A DNA stretch of 64,000 nucleotides from contig SVBF01000007.1 in the NCBI GenBank assembly GCA_015058945.1, positions 133,850 to 197,849 of the forward strand, written 5' to 3'. This document shows, in pieces, positions 27,001 to 33,000 of this stretch. Origin of the DNA: Erysipelotrichaceae bacterium. Lineage in GTDB: Bacteria; Bacillota_I; Bacilli_A; RFN20; CAG-826. The position numbers are program-made. Numbering within the stretch: the stretch's first letter is position 1; every line of letters starts with the position of its first letter.

Positions 27001-30000
27001 GTTCGCGAGGATAAATTGGGTATCCCCCTCAGAGAGCTTTATGAGGTAGGCGGAGTTTCTATGGGCTCCCACGACGTCGAAATCGATGCTGGACAAGGAG
27101 GAATCGTATTCCACTAGATCGGCTTCCTTGGAAATCGTGACGGTTTCGGTGGTGAAGGCCTCGTTGATGACCTTGATTTCGGAATTTGGCACAACGGAGC
27201 GGTAGGTGGAGATGGAGATAGTGCTGACGTCGCCGACCTTGTATTCGTTGAAGCGGCCTTTGACCTCGACGGAATCGCCGACATTGACGTCAAAGACATC
27301 GGGATAGGCGACTTCGACAGCGTATTTTCCGCTTTGGATCACGAGCTCGCCATCATCCTCCCCCGAATGCTTGGCAAAGGTAACTTTGCCTTTAACGGCA
27401 ACATATTTCTCGTTGAGACTTGGCAGCGTCTTGGCGACGCGGGCATCATGGAGCTCGCTGAGGGTAAAGGCCTCGAACGTCGGAAGGCTCTGACTCGAGC
27501 TGGTTTGCTCACTCTGTGAAGAAGAGGATGTAGAGGCAGAAGAGGAGGAATTGCCACCGCCGCAGGAAGCGAGGACGGCAAGGGCGAATAAGGGAAAGAC
27601 GTTTTTATGCAGTTTCATGTTTTTCCTTTCTTGATATATGGCTGCAAAATTATAAAGGAGAAACGGAATCCGTTCTTTGTGGTGTTTCATGTTGAAACAC
27701 TTATTTGGTTTTCTCGCTTCAACCGGAAGTTTGTATTCAGAAGGGCGCAATAACAATCCTTCCGGGCCATCGGTGGGCACTTTTATTGGCCTTGGTTTGC
27801 TTTTCCGCGATGGTGGAAGAGGATGAGAAGCGTGCCGCCCACATAGCAAATCGGCATCAGTATGGATACGACGAAGTCCCAAACCGCTTTGGCGTCGGTA
27901 AAGCCACCCGCTTGAATCATCCGATAAATGGTAAATCCAACGAGGGCGCCCAAAAGAATTGAAAAAAGTAACATCCAAAACCCGCATTTCCCGCGGATTA
28001 CGCCAAAGACGGCGGGCAAAGCGAGGAGGATGTAAAGCCCGGAAATGATCAAAACGAACATATCAGCCAAAAAGTTTCTGCTGTCGAAGAAGGCATCCCA
28101 CCCACCAGCTTTCTGAATGGTGTGAACACCGTTGATGATTCCCGTGATGCCGCTATAGAGAAGTAGGCCAGCGGCGATAGCTATCAAGATACGTCCAATG
28201 AAACGAAGCATGCCCGACGCTCCTTTCGGCACAATCATCCCACGTATTGCTTAAAAAATAGGGCAAGCAATACTATGCATTGGACCATCCTAATCCTACG
28301 GCAATGCTTTTGGTGCCGGCCCACGCAACGTTGTTATGGTTGCCCATCTGGGGATCTTTGCAACGCGTCTGGAGGGGTAAATAAATATCCGCGACATAAT
28401 CTTTGACGAATTTGTCCGCCTGCTCGAAGGTGTCGAAGAACCAGCAATAGAATTGTTCGGGAAGCTCTTGCTCCGAGGCGGGCGCCTTAACACCGGCGAG
28501 GTATTCCTTCAGTCCGTCGGCGACGAACGTTTCGCTTTGAGTCTTCTTGTAGTCCTCGCCCGACATGAGGATGACATTAGACTCGGAGAAGCCGTGGCTT
28601 AACAGATAGCTTTTGACGCCTCCGGATGATTCGGTTTGGGAGCAGCTCGCCAGAGCGAAGATCGCCAAGGCGGAAAACCCGATTTTGCGTAATCCAGTCA
28701 TTGTTTTCTCCTTTTTAGAAATATTCGCCGTTCTGAATATGAACAACGATTCTCGGAAATTATAGGCAGAAGGAAAAAGCCGTTAACCTCAGCGTTTCGG
28801 ATTGAAACATCTGTTTGGGACGCCGACGTAGACATGGATGTTTCCAAAAGCCTCCTCAAGGCGTTCCTTCCCCATGGGCAAATTACCTAGCAACGGGCTT
28901 ATATGTCCGACATCGCCGCAAAGATCGTGCCGCGTTCTAAATCGATCATCGGTTCTTGGACCGTTCGGAATAGACTCGGACGGAAAGGCGAACGAAGATG
29001 ATAACGTTATTTTTCTTGCTTTACTTCATAGGTTTTTGCAAAGAACAGGATGATGCCGATGATGCCCGCGATTCCCGCAACGCCAGCAAAGCCGGCAATA
29101 ACATACATCCAGATTTTGTTCTTTTCATCTACCGTGCCTTGCTGAAACGAAAACCAGACGAGCAGCCCTACCACAACGGCCAAAATAAGAACGGCTAGCC
29201 CAAAAAACAAATGCGTTTTTTTACGAACTCTTTTCATGTTGAATACTCCAATTGGCTAAATGTGATCTGTTTTCTGCTTTATCGGAAAACTTCTCATGGC
29301 GAATTATAAGCGGAAGGAATAATCTGTTAGCCCAAATGTTTCATATTGAAACACCTCGGGTCTTGCTTCATAGAAGGCTCTTTTTGGCTTTTGCGCTTTC
29401 GTTAAAGGCAAGATCGTGCCAAGGATGGCGGTAAACGGAACTTGATTGATTCCTTGCGGTTTCCTGGAGAACTCACTGGCGGGTTTGCGCCGAATCGGCG
29501 ATGAAGAAGATGCCTGGCACAACGGCGCCGAAGATGATGCCGAAGACGCCAAGGACGATGCCCGTGCCTTTGCCCATGGGGCTGTTGCGCTTGCCGATCA
29601 TAATCCCGGAGAAGACGATACCGACCAGAAAATAACCTGCGATAGCGAGGAAGACGGCAGCGACGGCAGCGAGTTCCGGAGCAGGAATCGCTCCAGGATC
29701 GCCCTCCGCCATGCCCTTCGCGGCGATGTTTATGATGCCGACGATGAGAAAGACAAGCGCGACAATCGCATAACTGATGATCGTGATGATCCCGGAAATC
29801 AGAACGCCTTTTTTCATAGTTTTTGATCCTTTCGTTTGATACTAATCGTAAGAAGAACTCCTATCATATTTAACAATTGACGCTACTTCTGCATGGTTTT
29901 CGATAGACGCAAGGGTTTTGCCCGTAGGCCTTACCAAAAGGCCACTTTTAGGCTTCCTCGGCATCGATGTAGGCGCCGAGGGCATCGACGTCATAAGGTT

Positions 30001-33000
30001 GGCAAAAGCCATTTTTTGCAACGCCGATGTCGGGGATGCCGCCGTGCTCATCGCCATAGTACTTATCGGCTTCCTCATCGTAATAACCGACGTGGTAGGG
30101 AGAAGAGTAACGGATATGCATGCCACTAGGCATAGTATATTCGAAGACGCAGCATTCTCCGCCGCCGGACCTCCCGCCAATGATGGTGGCGAGATTATAG
30201 CGTTTGGCGTAGAAGGGGAAAGCGTTGCCGCAGGAGAAGGAATAGTTGCTGGTGAGGATGTAGAACTTGAAATCGTTACCATAGCAGTCGGCGAGGTCGT
30301 ATTTGCCATCGTCATTGGCGTCGACCCTGGTGGTTGTCCTTAAGATGGCGTCGTTGTCGTCGCTACGGAGGAAGATTTCGGATTTGTTGTCTTTGCTCAT
30401 GAGGGCGAGAAGCTTGGCCATGATGGTCACGTAGCCACCGCCGTTGAGGGTGTCGTCGATGATGATCCTCTTGACGCCTTTGGATTTGGCCTCCTCGAGG
30501 TTGCGGACGAAGTAATTGAAGGTATCGGAGTAGAAGACCTTTTCGGGGATGGGTTCGCCCTCTTCGGGGAAATGATTGTAAGTGTCGAAGCCATCGAAGC
30601 TGAAGAAACCGTATTTTCCGTCATTGGAATAAAGCATGTCTTTCACTTTGACTTTGGTGCCGTGTTCCTCGTTATAGCGTTTGTATGCGGCCGCGCGCTC
30701 GGCGGCTAGATACCAGTTGAGTTCCATGCGGTCTTTTTGGAAGCCTTGCTCATAATGGTAATCGCTAAAACCGCTCTCGCCATAGTTATGGCTCGGACTG
30801 ACGCCGCTATGCATATCGTTGAGCATATCGATAGCGCGGCCATAGGCATTGAAGCGGGTTTCGCTATCATCGGAGAGGAAATTGGCCGATAGCTCAAAGC
30901 CTTCGAAATAATTACTCATGGAACGGATGCCCTTTTGGGAGGCCATGCCATAGAAGTTGTCCATCAGAAAGTAGAAGAGCTTCTTATTGAAAGCGGTCAA
31001 AGCCTGGGGCTGATGGATTATTGTCGGGTTATCCTTCTCGCCATAGGCCTCGGAGTGGCAATTGGAGATATAGAATTTCGGCGCGACGGTATCCCCATCC
31101 GGCATGGCGAGCAAGCCGGTTTCTAGTTGATTTTGGGACCCGAATTCGACGAGTTCCATTTTGGGGGTGTTGAAAACGAATCCGCGTTCAACCGTCAGGC
31201 TGAGGGCAAGGCTAAGCAACGCGAAGGGATACTGGTATTTTCCGTCGACTTGGAAGACGTCAAAGCCATATTGTCCAAAGGGATAGATCTTGGTGATGTT
31301 TTCGTGTCCGGGCATATATTCGTTCACGATTTGGGCGCGGGCGTTTTCGCCGGTGATGCCGTTACGGGTGCTTTTCAAGAAGTCGGAATCGAGCTCTCCG
31401 TCGAGTGAGAGGGTCTCTTCCTTTGCGTCCATGGTGATGCGGAAGGCGACTTCTTCGCCCTTTTTGACGGTCCAGGATGAGACGCTATCATGATTCTCGC
31501 TAGAGGCGGCATATCCCTCGCTCAGCTCGCTTTCTAGCAATTTGCCGAAGGATTCAACATCGATGTAATAGATGCTGTCATCGATATTGTCGAGGTAATA
31601 CATCTTGAGCTTGTCTTTGCGGTAATACTCCTCGGGGGTTTTGGTATCCTCGTAATATTCCGGGTCATCCGACCTATATGGGGCGCCGATCAAATCGAGG
31701 ACGTTGAGCTCGGCCGACTTGATGCGGCCTTTGTACGGGTCGACGGACGAAGAACTCGATGTCGTCAAAGAGGTCTCCGAGGAAGAAAGAGAACTTTCGC
31801 TGGAGGCAAGACTGCTAGAAACTCCGCTAGAGCAGGCGGTTAGGCCAACGAGAAGGCAAGTAAAGCTGAGGACATGCAATGGTTTTTTCATGATTTTGCT
31901 CCTTAAATGGGCAGGTGGTTGATTGACGAAGAAGGAATCTGATTTCGCCTATAAAAGCGAAAACTTCCCAGTGCGCCAGGAAGTTTCGCCGTAAATGGGT
32001 CATTATTCGCGAGAACGGTTCATGCCGGAATCGATGGCAAAGAAGATGCCGGGGAGCGTCGCGCCAAAAACGGCGGCGAAGACGCCCAAGACGATGCCGG
32101 GGGCCTTCTTCATGTCGGAGTTGCGCTTGACGAGAAGGATGACATCAAGAATAGCGCCGACGATGAGACTAAAGCCCAAGGCGATGTTGGCCGCGGCTAA
32201 ACTCGGATTGGGGTCGATCGTGACGGAACCGGATTGGACCTTCACTAGGTCGCCGAAGCCAACGACGAGTTCGGCTATGGCGCCCCCAACGCAGAGGACG
32301 AGCCAGATAATACCGGTGATAAGAATCGCTTTTTTCATAGTTTTAACTCGTTGCGAACGGATATGGATTAGCCGAGGAGCCCCCAAGCGGCCTCAATCTC
32401 TTGGTCCATTTCCTCGTCGTGGCCCTCGGGCCAGCTTGCCTTGGTCGTGCTGAAGGCGATGAAGACTTTGTTGGGGACCTCTCCAGAGGAAATTCTGGTC
32501 AAGGTTTCGTTCACCGCGGCTTTGTCGATGGGACCATATGCTTTGGCGCTGATATGACCTTCTCCTTCAGATTTGGCGACGGTCACATAGAGGTCTTGGG
32601 CAAAGGTGCCTTCTGCGGTAAGTTCGAACTTCCCGCCGAGGTCGTCCTGTCGGCCGCCCGTGATAGAGGTGCCGTTGATTCTGAGACGAGGGGTTGTCTC
32701 CGGGTCGGAAGTGGCGACGACGTTGCTGGGGACGTCCATGTAGTATTGCCCATCTTTGAGGAAGTCCATGGTCTTTTTGGCGGCCGAACTTGTGAGGGAC
32801 GGTTCGGAGCTCGACACGGACGATCCGCCATTCCCCCCGCAGGAGGCAAGAAGGACGAGGCTTGCTAGGAAGACGATGATTTTTTGAGCTTTCATTGTTT
32901 TGATCTCCTTAAACGGCTGTATTCTAATTTGACTGGTGGGTCCGCTCTATAGAGCGTTTCGGATTGAAACCTTTTTTACGTCTCTTGTTTTCTTGTAAAA

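What the first reader, a model, noticed from the sequence alone, without database searches (positions are those of the whole stretch)
29473..32895. Alternating lipoprotein / small paralogous membrane protein modules, including an S41-like peptidase lipoprotein
The array reads (in transcription order) Lpp175 - TM112 - Lpp647(S41-like) - TM114 - TM76. Further downstream it continues Lpp157 - TM142 - Lpp372. TM112 and TM114 are clear paralogs, sharing KRNSxMxKxxGIVLGVF...PGIFF(A/I)xDS. All of the lipoproteins have Ser-rich linkers after the lipobox. The repeating unit of lipoprotein plus cognate small membrane protein looks like duplicated surface-protein/anchor or substrate/immunity cassettes. 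The S41-type peptidase could process the neighbouring lipoproteins or the CDC-like protein.
Basis: seen in the sequence. Interest (0 to 1): 0.5.

Follow-up and report, generated by a model that had tools for sequence, protein, structure and literature searches.

The report
Two-component-controlled lipoprotein and membrane-protein regulon
A gut/rumen Erysipelotrichaceae bacterium carries a cluster of surface lipoproteins (one is a protease) interleaved with small membrane proteins, and the cluster appears to be switched on together by a neighbouring sensor-regulator pair through a shared 15-bp DNA site; this makes it a tidy but fairly ordinary envelope regulon built from uncharacterised protein families.

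Summary
On the minus strand lie four lipobox proteins (175, 647, 142 and 372 aa) interleaved with four small polytopic membrane proteins (111, 114, 76 and 142 aa). The 647-aa lipoprotein carries a Peptidase_S41 domain. Its Ser553, His361 and Glu615 are invariant or nearly so, which fits a CPAF-like triad.

TM111 and TM114 are true paralogs (41% identity, E=2e-17). Both are under purifying selection. They belong to a small family of rumen Bacilli that is distantly DUF4064-like (AuxB-type), below Pfam threshold. TM76 and TM142 are unrelated to them.

New here:
- **Shared promoter site.** A palindrome, GTTTCAAnnnGAAAC, sits upstream of five promoters around the adjacent XRE-HTH/receiver regulator and histidine kinase. 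It lies exactly 29 nt from the -10 box in four of them. It recurs only in orthologous loci that keep this two-component system. The cluster is therefore most likely one regulon.
- **Different evolutionary pairing.** Comparative loci show the evolutionary units are Lpp175→TM114-type and TM111-type→S41. The TM111–S41 block is a divergent, exchangeable cassette, and TM111 is absent in one close strain.

Family genes follow a lipoprotein gene in 7 of 14 contexts, but they also occur in housekeeping contexts.

A lipoprotein/membrane-partner role is plausible but unproven. Toxin/immunity and a link to the CDC-like protein are unsupported. Interest is moderate to low.

The parts
33044..33649 (+). Response regulator with an N-terminal XRE-type HTH and a C-terminal receiver domain; the presumed binder of the palindromic operator
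   Evidence: Pfam HTH_3 E=1e-11 and Response_reg E=1e-14. It is conserved next to Lpp175 in L005 and L030.
33646..34923 (+). Polytopic sensor histidine kinase (LytS/YehU-type His_kinase plus HATPase_c)
   Evidence: Pfam PF06580 E=8e-16 and HATPase_c E=3.5e-8.
32956..32970 (-). Operator copy 1, GTTTCAATCCGAAAC, 29 nt upstream of TAGAAT; promoter of Lpp175, in the intergenic region shared with the divergent regulator/kinase genes
   Evidence: A perfect copy sits at the orthologous place in L005 and L030.
32368..32895 (-). Lpp175, a lipoprotein with a Ser-rich linker and a beta-rich domain with no detectable fold relative
32003..32338 (-). TM111, a DUF4064-like small membrane protein and paralog of TM114; strain-variable
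   Evidence: 41% identity to TM114, E=2e-17. Orthologs in L005 (70%) and L028 (67%). Precisely absent in L030.
31960..31987 (-). Stem-loop followed by UUUUAUA between TM111 and the S41 gene; a possible partial terminator or 5'-UTR element
   Evidence: It is conserved upstream of S41 in L005 and L030 even where TM111 is absent. No Rfam match.
29948..31891 (-). Lpp647, an S41-family serine peptidase lipoprotein of the CPAF/IRBP-like branch
   Evidence: Pfam PF03572 at 52.9 bits. His361 and Ser553 are invariant and Glu615 nearly so. Ser553 aligns with the CPAF F-S-C serine that is Ala in PDB 3dpn.
29473..29817 (-). TM114, a DUF4064-like small membrane protein with four predicted helices
   Evidence: Homologs. 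30 of 77 family members hit DUF4064 at E<=0.01. AlphaFold pLDDT 90.7, helices 2-37, 46-75, 83-95 and 99-112.
29338..29352 (-). Operator copy 2, GTTTCAATATGAAAC, 29 nt upstream of TATAAT; promoter of TM76
   Evidence: A perfect copy lies downstream of TM114 in L005.
29007..29237 (-). TM76, a two-helix membrane protein unrelated to TM111/TM114
28794..28808 (-). Operator copy 3, GTTTCAATCCGAAAC, 29 nt upstream of TATAAT; promoter of Lpp142
28273..28701 (-). Lpp142, a small lipoprotein
   Evidence: Lipobox LASC. A 61%-identical homolog lies in L021 next to Lpp372 and Lpp175 homologs.
27783..28211 (-). TM142, a four-segment membrane protein unrelated to TM111/TM114
   Evidence: An AAAGGAG site lies 8 nt before the ATG at 28211.
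27684..27698 (-). Operator copy 4, GTTTCAACATGAAAC, 29 nt upstream of TATAAT; promoter of Lpp372
26500..27618 (-). Lpp372, a lipoprotein with a C-terminal CBM26 starch-binding module
   Evidence: Lipobox LASC. CBM26 E=9e-9. Homologs lacking the CBM lie next to Lpp175h (L021) and upstream of a TM111-type gene (L018).
36444..36458 (-). Operator copy 5, GTTTCAAATTGAAAC, 40 nt upstream of TATAAT; promoter of a 205-aa exported or anchored protein
35738..36355 (-). 205-aa protein with an N-terminal hydrophobic signal or anchor (VLGC, a weak lipobox); putative fifth transcription unit of the regulon
   Evidence: No Pfam hit.

Best explanation
This is a cell-envelope regulon of an uncultured rumen Erysipelotrichaceae bacterium, governed by the adjacent two-component system. 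The polytopic His_kinase-type sensor (33646-34923) is inferred to phosphorylate the XRE-HTH/receiver regulator (33044-33649). The regulator is inferred to bind a 15-bp palindrome, GTTTCAAnnnGAAAC, placed at a fixed distance upstream of five promoters. Those promoters would drive: Lpp175-TM111-(hairpin, read-through)-S41 lipoprotein-TM114; TM76; Lpp142-TM142; Lpp372 (which carries CBM26); and a 205-aa exported protein. The products are surface-tethered lipoproteins and small integral membrane proteins. One lipoprotein is probably an active Ser553/His361/Glu615 S41 protease of the CPAF/IRBP-like branch, and one binds starch. TM111 and TM114 are paralogs of a DUF4064-like (AuxB/tetraspanin-clan-like) four-helix family. 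I infer that they act as membrane partners or organisers for lipid-anchored proteins made from the same transcript. This is by analogy with AuxB, which complexes with membrane proteins through its DUF4064 domain, and with the DUF4467-lipoprotein/DUF4064 gene pairs of the S. aureus ess locus. The array arose by module shuffling: an Lpp175→TM114-type pair into which a divergent TM111-type→S41 cassette was inserted. Shown here: the genes, the paralogy, their conservation, the S41 residues, the operator and its geometry, and the module history. Inferred: which protein binds the operator, the read-through into S41, protease activity, and any lipoprotein-TM interaction.
For: Gene content and lipoboxes. 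Paralogy. Family conservation and purifying selection. Link to DUF4064: 30 of 77 family members match at E<=0.01, best 31.7 bits against a cut-off of 32.1, covering the whole 102-position profile; the model has four helices. AuxB and ess-locus precedents: PMC12505970 and PMC4788903. S41 catalytic residues. Operator: five sites give 8 strand matches against 0.48 expected, with 0 of 100 shuffles reaching 8. All five lie upstream of minus-strand start codons, with a 29-nt spacer to the -10 box in four and 40 nt in the fifth. Across 345 kb of related loci, perfect copies occur only in L005 and L030, at orthologous positions beside the same regulator and kinase. There are none in L021 or L029, which lack this two-component system, and only two 1-mismatch sites inside or at the start of the S41 coding region in L028. 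Pair conservation: Lpp175h→TM114h in L021, L028 and L029. A lipoprotein lies upstream in 7 of 14 contexts against a 10.6% base rate. Cassette history: nucleotide identity between the window and L005 is about 83-96% (mostly 90-95%) in the flanks and 62-88% (mostly about 70%) across TM111-S41. dS is 0.17-0.20 in the flanks against 0.6-1.0 in the cassette.
Against: No expression or binding data exist. The regulator-operator assignment rests on adjacency and co-occurrence only. There is no operator upstream of S41 or TM114, and a terminator-like hairpin precedes S41, so their co-regulation depends on read-through. TM111/TM114 do not reach Pfam's DUF4064 threshold, and they lack the Trp that PMC12505970 reports as conserved in DUF4064. 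The partner idea is weakened in four ways. TM111 is absent in L030. Family members sit in housekeeping contexts (S30AE-TM-M32 peptidase, L024-L027) or after Fic or other genes. Two S41 homologs have no adjacent family gene: L008 has none, and in L006 the family gene lies 1.4 kb away across an IS200-type transposase. The most conserved part of the family (helices 3-4 and the DSxxxR tail) is the same whatever the neighbour.
Confidence: 0.5

Rival explanations
1. The adjacency is incidental. The DUF4064-like genes encode generic, self-sufficient membrane proteins such as membrane-homeostasis factors. Lipoprotein genes merely accumulate beside them in a recombination-prone accessory region, so there is no physical or functional pairing.
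For: The family occurs in a housekeeping context without lipoproteins (L024-L027). In L004 a Big_3 surface-protein gene lies between the same S30AE gene and the family gene, which suggests insertion. TM111 is present or absent between close strains. The TM111-S41 block is mosaic. The conserved core of the family is independent of the neighbour. A hybrid TM111/TM114 protein, P0043, suggests recombination between the paralogs.
Against: Lpp175-family→TM114-type adjacency persists in at least four lineages with otherwise different flanks, down to 48% lipoprotein identity. At least four unrelated lipoprotein families precede a family member. Intergenic gaps are short (29-130 nt). A similar lipoprotein/DUF4064 pairing is reported in S. 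aureus (PMC4788903).
Confidence: 0.3
2. The lipoprotein/TM pairs are accessory sensing components of the histidine kinase. An extracytoplasmic lipoprotein plus a membrane adaptor would feed signals to a kinase that lacks a large external domain.
For: Lpp175 is divergently adjacent to the regulator and kinase in the window, L005 and L030. In L019 a TM114 ortholog, an Lpp175-like lipoprotein and an Lpp142-like lipoprotein lie beside another His_kinase-type system. The operator lies in the shared intergenic region.
Against: The Lpp175→TM114 pair occurs without any two-component system within the flanks in L021, L028 and L029. Being a target of the system explains the same adjacency more simply.
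Confidence: 0.1
3. These are effector/immunity (or substrate/immunity) cassettes. The S41 protease or other lipoproteins would be antagonistic effectors, and the small membrane proteins would protect the producer.
For: Small polytopic membrane proteins next to exported proteins resemble immunity genes. DUF4064 genes occur in the S. aureus T7SS locus. The TM111-S41 block is unusually divergent between close strains.
Against: No toxin domain, LXG/WXG motif, T7SS or other secretion gene, and no defence-system hit was found. The lipoproteins are lipid-anchored to the producer. dN/dS of S41 is 0.18, which indicates old alleles rather than diversifying selection. TM111 can be lost while S41 is kept.
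Confidence: 0.05

Closest known systems
DUF4064 (PF13273) membrane proteins, e.g. S. aureus AuxB, and the DUF4467-lipoprotein/DUF4064 gene pairs of the S. aureus ess locus (SAOUHSC_00279/00280; SAEMRSA_2520/2530)
   Same: They are small, with a domain of about 100-130 aa. The model shows four helices. The whole-length profile relationship runs through intermediate sequences. The gene lies immediately next to a gene for an exported or lipid-anchored protein, and the pairing occurs more than once in a locus (PMC4788903).
   Different: TM111/TM114 themselves score below Pfam's cut-off. They lack the conserved Trp of AuxB-type proteins and the long cytoplasmic tail that binds GpsB (PMC12505970). 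The partner lipoproteins are unrelated to DUF4467; Lpp175 has no detectable fold relative. There is no T7SS nearby.
Peptidase family S41, CPAF / IRBP / Bacteroides S41 branch (PDB 3dor, 9frx, 8vcb, 4l8k)
   Same: The S41 domain scores above the Pfam cut-off. The F-S-C nucleophile motif and the GGG motif align with CPAF. His and Glu are invariant at positions compatible with a Ser-His-Glu triad.
   Different: It is lipid-anchored through a lipobox and a Ser-rich linker. A region of about 400 aa N-terminal to the S41 domain (residues about 50-450) has no recognised domain, although it contains the invariant His361. No PDZ domain is present, and the Lys of the Tsp/CtpA-type Ser-Lys dyad is absent ("RSGGGE" in place of TFGKG). 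Identity to solved structures is confined to about 80-100 residues.
LytS/YehU-type His_kinase two-component systems and their envelope regulons
   Same: The kinase has a polytopic N-terminus with PF06580 plus HATPase_c. It is encoded next to, and divergent from, its presumed target operon of membrane and envelope proteins.
   Different: The cognate regulator is an XRE-HTH/receiver protein with the DNA-binding domain at the N-terminus, not a LytTR regulator. The presumed operator is a 15-bp perfect-arm palindrome rather than LytTR-type direct repeats.

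Membership tests
Peptidase S41 (PF03572) | Domain score above Pfam's gathering threshold | tested here: met
   52.9 bits against a cut-off of 24, residues 461-596. All 19 homologs carry PF03572.
Peptidase S41 (PF03572) | Nucleophilic Ser conserved and aligned with an experimentally defined catalytic Ser | tested here: met
   Ser553 is invariant in 16 sequences. It aligns with the Ser of CPAF 'DFSCADFF', and PDB 3dpn differs from 3dor only in having Ala at that position. 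That this residue is catalytic Ser499 comes from my own knowledge of CPAF.
Peptidase S41 (PF03572) | General base: Lys of a Ser-Lys dyad (Tsp/CtpA branch) or His(-Glu) of the CPAF/tricorn branch | tested here: inconclusive
   There is no Lys at the TFGKG-equivalent position (the sequence is RSGGGE). His361 is invariant and Glu615 nearly so. Glu615 and Asp614 lie next to the CPAF 'IEN' region in the alignment. The His correspondence rests on a motif only, with no structural superposition.
Peptidase S41 (PF03572) | PDZ substrate-binding domain, typical of C-terminal processing peptidases | tested here: not met
   No PDZ hit in Pfam or NCBIfam. This is consistent with the CPAF/IRBP-like branch rather than Ctp/Tsp.
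Peptidase S41 (PF03572) | Proteolytic activity | not testable with these tools
   Requires an enzyme assay.
DUF4064 (PF13273; AuxB-type) | Score above Pfam's gathering threshold (32.1 bits) | tested here: not met
   TM111 and TM114 give no hit. 6 of 21 close relatives hit at E>=0.0095. The best distant family member scores 31.7 bits.
DUF4064 (PF13273; AuxB-type) | Homology detectable through intermediate sequences over the whole domain | tested here: met
   30 of 77 members of the TM114-family profile search match DUF4064 at E<=0.01. The matches cover profile positions 1-101 of 102.
DUF4064 (PF13273; AuxB-type) | Four-helix membrane topology | tested here: inconclusive
DUF4064 (PF13273; AuxB-type) | Conserved Trp (AuxB Trp86) at the dimer interface | tested here: not met
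   TM114 contains no Trp, and TM111 has one only at position 12. The feature is taken from PMC12505970.
Bacterial lipoproteins (Lgt/Lsp substrates) | Basic n-region, hydrophobic h-region, and a lipobox [LVI][ASTVI][GAS]C within about 15-25 residues | tested here: met
   Lpp175 LASC-19, Lpp647 LTAC-20, Lpp142 LASC-20, Lpp372 LASC-19. The Cys is invariant in homolog alignments. Actual lipidation cannot be tested here.
Toxin/immunity or polymorphic-effector cassettes | A recognisable toxin or effector domain and a dedicated secretion or delivery system nearby | tested here: not met
   No such domains were found in Pfam, NCBIfam, PADLOC or PHROGs scans of the cluster and its neighbours.
Two-component-system regulon | A shared cis element at target promoters that co-occurs with the regulator | tested here: met
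   Five palindromes in the window against 0.48 matches expected. The spacing to the -10 box is fixed. Perfect copies occur only in loci that carry the orthologous regulator and kinase. Binding by the regulator itself was not tested.

The most novel reading that the evidence does not exclude
The DUF4064-like proteins are dedicated, tetraspanin-like membrane organisers for lipid-anchored surface proteins. 'Lipoprotein + DUF4064-like' is then a portable two-gene module that Erysipelotrichaceae and related Bacilli shuffle between loci, including a swappable TM111-S41 protease cassette. The module is wired to an unusual XRE-HTH/receiver regulator through a phase-locked palindromic operator. This would give DUF4064 a general function and explain the enigmatic lipoprotein/DUF4064 pairs in the staphylococcal ess locus.
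Probability: 0.2. Interest if true: 0.55.

Novelty: new variant of a known kind. Interest (0 to 1): 0.33.

Why it matters
All of these genes are annotated only as hypothetical proteins in rumen Erysipelotrichaceae MAGs. The analysis turns them into a defined and testable unit: a sensor kinase, an unusual XRE-HTH/receiver regulator, a precise 15-bp operator with fixed promoter geometry, and nine envelope genes. Those genes include a probably active CPAF-like S41 surface protease and a starch-binding lipoprotein.

If the recurrent lipoprotein→DUF4064-like adjacency reflects a physical partnership, it would suggest a general role for DUF4064 proteins beyond S. aureus AuxB. If it does not, this is simply an ordinary accessory envelope regulon. 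That is useful for annotation but not surprising.

Tried and rejected
- **TM76 and TM142 as further paralogs.** I tested them against TM111/TM114 with BLASTP and hhalign against the family profile. They are unrelated.
- **The 278-aa tetraspanin-like ORF at 21821-22657.** The profile match is insignificant, at 22% probability.
- **Defence system or phage origin.** PADLOC and PHROGs gave nothing for the eight cluster proteins.
- **Structured RNA between the genes.** There is no Rfam match at E<=0.1. The hairpin z-score is only -1.76.
- **AlphaFold database search.** The afdb50 library was unavailable.
- **Wider locus scans.** Genome and metagenome scans with the family pattern returned only 4 and 6 loci. 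The context statistics therefore rest on about 14 contexts.
- **A matching operator for the paralogous two-component system near the CDC-like gene.** The only palindrome there (AATTTCGAAATT, 2975-2986) is a single copy and not above chance.
- **S41 processing of the CDC-like protein.** Nothing links them: they are 27 kb apart, under different two-component systems, with no shared operator.

Full report
**Source and anatomy.**
The four core proteins match, residue for residue, hypothetical proteins MBE6126708-11 of an 'Erysipelotrichaceae bacterium' MAG. Relatives come from goat, deer and other rumen 'Bacilli bacterium' MAGs.

On the minus strand of the window, in transcription order:

| Gene | Coordinates | Note |
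|---|---|---|
| Lpp175 | 32368-32895 | lipobox LASC |
| Lpp647 | 29948-31891 | lipobox LTAC |
| TM114 | 29473-29817 | |
| TM76 | 29007-29237 | |
| TM142 | 27783-28211 | |
| Lpp372 | 26500-27618 | lipobox LASC |

Three of the four lipoproteins have long Ser-rich linkers after the lipobox Cys. Divergently upstream lie a regulator with an XRE-type HTH followed by a receiver domain (33044-33649) and a polytopic His_kinase/HATPase_c sensor (33646-34923).

**The S41 lipoprotein.**
Lpp647 scores 52.9 bits on Pfam Peptidase_S41 against a cut-off of 24. Its nearest solved relatives are CPAF, IRBP modules and Bacteroides S41 proteins; only the N-terminal part of the S41 domain aligns weakly with CtpB.

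In an alignment of 16 homologs down to 22% identity, His361, Ser553 and the GGG576-578 motif are invariant, and Glu615 is nearly so. Ser553 aligns with the Ser of CPAF 'DFSCADFF'. That is the very position that is Ala in PDB 3dpn compared with 3dor. No PDZ domain and no dyad Lys are present.

I read this as a probably active Ser-His-Glu protease of the CPAF/IRBP-like branch, tethered to the cell surface. Activity and substrates are untested.

**The small membrane proteins.**
TM111 and TM114 are 41% identical over their full length (E=2e-17). TM76 and TM142 are unrelated to them and to each other.

TM114 has 48 homolog clusters in the 5.8-billion-protein set. A profile search finds 83 representatives at 50% identity among 1.84 billion proteins, so this is a small family. 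Residues Gly90, Gly97, Ala98, Pro101, Phe105, Asp108, Ser109 and Arg113 are invariant. dN/dS against orthologs is 0.21-0.40. These are expressed-protein signatures, not chance ORFs.

Neither protein hits Pfam directly. However, 30 of 77 family members match DUF4064 at E<=0.01 over the whole 102-position profile, with the best at 31.7 bits against a cut-off of 32.1.

DUF4064 is the membrane domain of S. aureus AuxB, a four-helix protein that forms complexes with PknB and GpsB (PMC12505970). In the S. aureus ess locus, DUF4064 genes sit next to DUF4467 exported-protein genes, and they do so twice (PMC4788903). TM111 and TM114 lack the conserved AuxB Trp. I therefore call them DUF4064-like, not members.

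**A shared operator defines a regulon.**
A repeat search flagged a motif upstream of Lpp175 and Lpp142. Searching for GTTTCAAnnnGAAAC finds five sites in 64 kb, giving 8 strand matches against 0.48 expected; none of 100 shuffles reached 8.

All five sites lie upstream of minus-strand genes around the two-component system: Lpp175, TM76, Lpp142, Lpp372 and a 205-aa exported protein (35738-36355). In four of them the palindrome ends exactly 29 nt before a TATAAT or TAGAAT box. In the fifth the spacer is 40 nt, one helical turn more.

Across 345 kb of related loci, perfect copies occur only in L005 and L030. They sit at the orthologous positions, next to the orthologous regulator and kinase. There are none in L021 or L029, where the lipoprotein/TM genes occur without this system. 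L028, which also lacks it, has only two 1-mismatch sites, inside or at the start of the S41 coding region.

The simplest reading is that the XRE-HTH/receiver regulator binds this palindrome and activates five transcription units. No site precedes S41 or TM114. A conserved hairpin with a U-tract lies between TM111 and S41. S41-TM114 are therefore either read through from the Lpp175 promoter or separately expressed.

**Which genes really go together.**
- *L005* (S41 73% identical) keeps regulator/kinase, Lpp175, TM111, S41 and TM114.
- *L028* has two divergent units, TM111h→S41h and Lpp175h→TM114h.
- *L021 and L029* have Lpp175h→TM114h without S41 or TM111. L021 also carries Lpp142h and Lpp372h immediately upstream.
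- *L018* has Lpp372h→TM111-type.
- *L030*, a close strain, lacks TM111 precisely: the Lpp175 stop runs straight into the hairpin and S41.

Between the window and L005, nucleotide identity is about 83-96% (mostly 90-95%) across the kinase, regulator, Lpp175 and TM114. It falls to 62-88% (mostly about 70%) from inside TM111 to the end of S41. dS is 0.17-0.20 in the flanks against 0.6-1.0 in the cassette, and dN/dS of S41 is 0.18.

The array thus looks like an Lpp175→TM114 pair into which an older, exchangeable TM111→S41 cassette was inserted. A 78-aa database protein, P0043, is TM111-like at its N-terminus and TM114-like at its C-terminus. This hints at recombination between the paralogs, though it could be an assembly chimera.

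**Is 'lipoprotein + small TM protein' a module?**
Of about 14 non-redundant contexts with enough flank, a lipobox protein lies immediately upstream on the same strand in 7. Those proteins come from four unrelated families: Lpp175 family, S41, Lpp372 family and a 951-aa protein.

By the same permissive test, lipoproteins make up about 10.6% of ORFs in these loci (p=2.6e-4, uncorrected for phylogeny).

There are counter-examples:
- In L024-L027 the gene sits between a ribosome hibernation factor and an M32 peptidase.
- In L004 a Big_3 gene has been inserted at the same spot.
- In L002 the gene follows Fic.
- Among more distant S41 homologs, L008 has no family gene. In L006 the family gene lies 1.4 kb downstream of S41, across an IS200-type transposase and an opposite-strand lipoprotein gene.

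The association is real but not obligatory.

**Other checks.**
- PADLOC, PHROGs and Rfam give nothing relevant.
It lies next to a paralogous two-component system whose regulator is 54% identical, and it has no copy of the operator. Nothing connects it to the S41 protein.

**Verdict.**
The finding is real. It is best described as a two-component-system-controlled envelope regulon. It consists of surface lipoproteins, including a CPAF-like S41 protease and a CBM26 protein, together with small membrane proteins.

It contains two DUF4064-like paralogs that recur next to lipoprotein genes in related bacteria. A partner or organiser role for them is the best available inference (about 0.3 on its own). 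The regulon architecture is better supported (about 0.6-0.7).

Toxin/immunity is unlikely. The families are uncharacterised, but the kinds of parts are known. I score it as a new variant of a known kind, of moderate to low interest.

Noticed in passing
window 526-2139 (-), 2117-3043 (-), 3047-3643 (+), 3640-4905 (+): A 537-aa lipoprotein has a full thiol-activated cytolysin (CDC) domain (E=8e-51). It is preceded by a 308-aa ORF with no Pfam hit. Both are divergent from a second XRE-HTH/receiver regulator (54% identical to the one at 33044) and a His_kinase sensor. This is a paralogous 'two-component system plus lipoprotein operon' design that lacks the GTTTCAAnnnGAAAC operator. A lone palindrome, AATTTCGAAATT, at 2975-2986 is not above chance.
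   Followed up: partly
window 6655-16623: A Type I restriction-modification locus (hsdR 13780-16623, hsdM 12190-13764, hsdS 11117-12193) has three extra hsdS-like genes in alternating orientation (7650-8714 +, 8707-9837 -, 9879-11033 +) and a tyrosine recombinase (6655-7569). GC drops to about 0.41-0.42 here. This is the layout of a phase-variable hsdS shufflon. Inverted repeats were not examined.
   Followed up: partly
window 29905-32303 vs L005: Divergence is mosaic between two otherwise close genomes. Flanks are about 83-96% (mostly 90-95%) identical at the nucleotide level. The TM111-S41 block is 62-88% (mostly about 70%), with dS 0.6-1.0 against 0.17-0.20 in the flanks. This suggests allelic replacement of a cassette by recombination.
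   Followed up: yes
L030 10528-10642 vs window 31892-32367: There is a gene-precise presence/absence polymorphism of TM111 between close strains. In L030 the Lpp175 stop is joined directly to the conserved hairpin and the S41 gene.
   Followed up: yes
protein P0043 (NCBI, 5.1-kb contig): This 78-aa protein has an N-terminal part that matches TM111 and a C-terminal part that matches TM114, with the junction in the shared IVLGVF stretch. It is either a recombinant that deleted S41 or an assembly chimera.
   Followed up: partly
L019 8942-12094: In another rumen contig, a TM114 ortholog (75% identical), an Lpp175-like 176-aa lipoprotein and an Lpp142-like 135-aa lipoprotein lie around a different His_kinase sensor and a 254-aa receiver-domain regulator. 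The same gene families are thus re-associated with a different two-component system.
   Followed up: partly
window 19048-21627 (-), 17859-18677 (-), 4969-6513 (-): Other envelope or lipid-active genes lie in the window: an 859-aa Lipase_3 protein with a signal peptide, a membrane-anchored alpha/beta hydrolase, and a PLD-type (cardiolipin-synthase-like) protein.
   Followed up: no
window 38992-39783 (-): A 263-aa membrane protein combines DUF4234 and DUF2188 domains around an acidic, Pro/Glu-rich linker.
   Followed up: no
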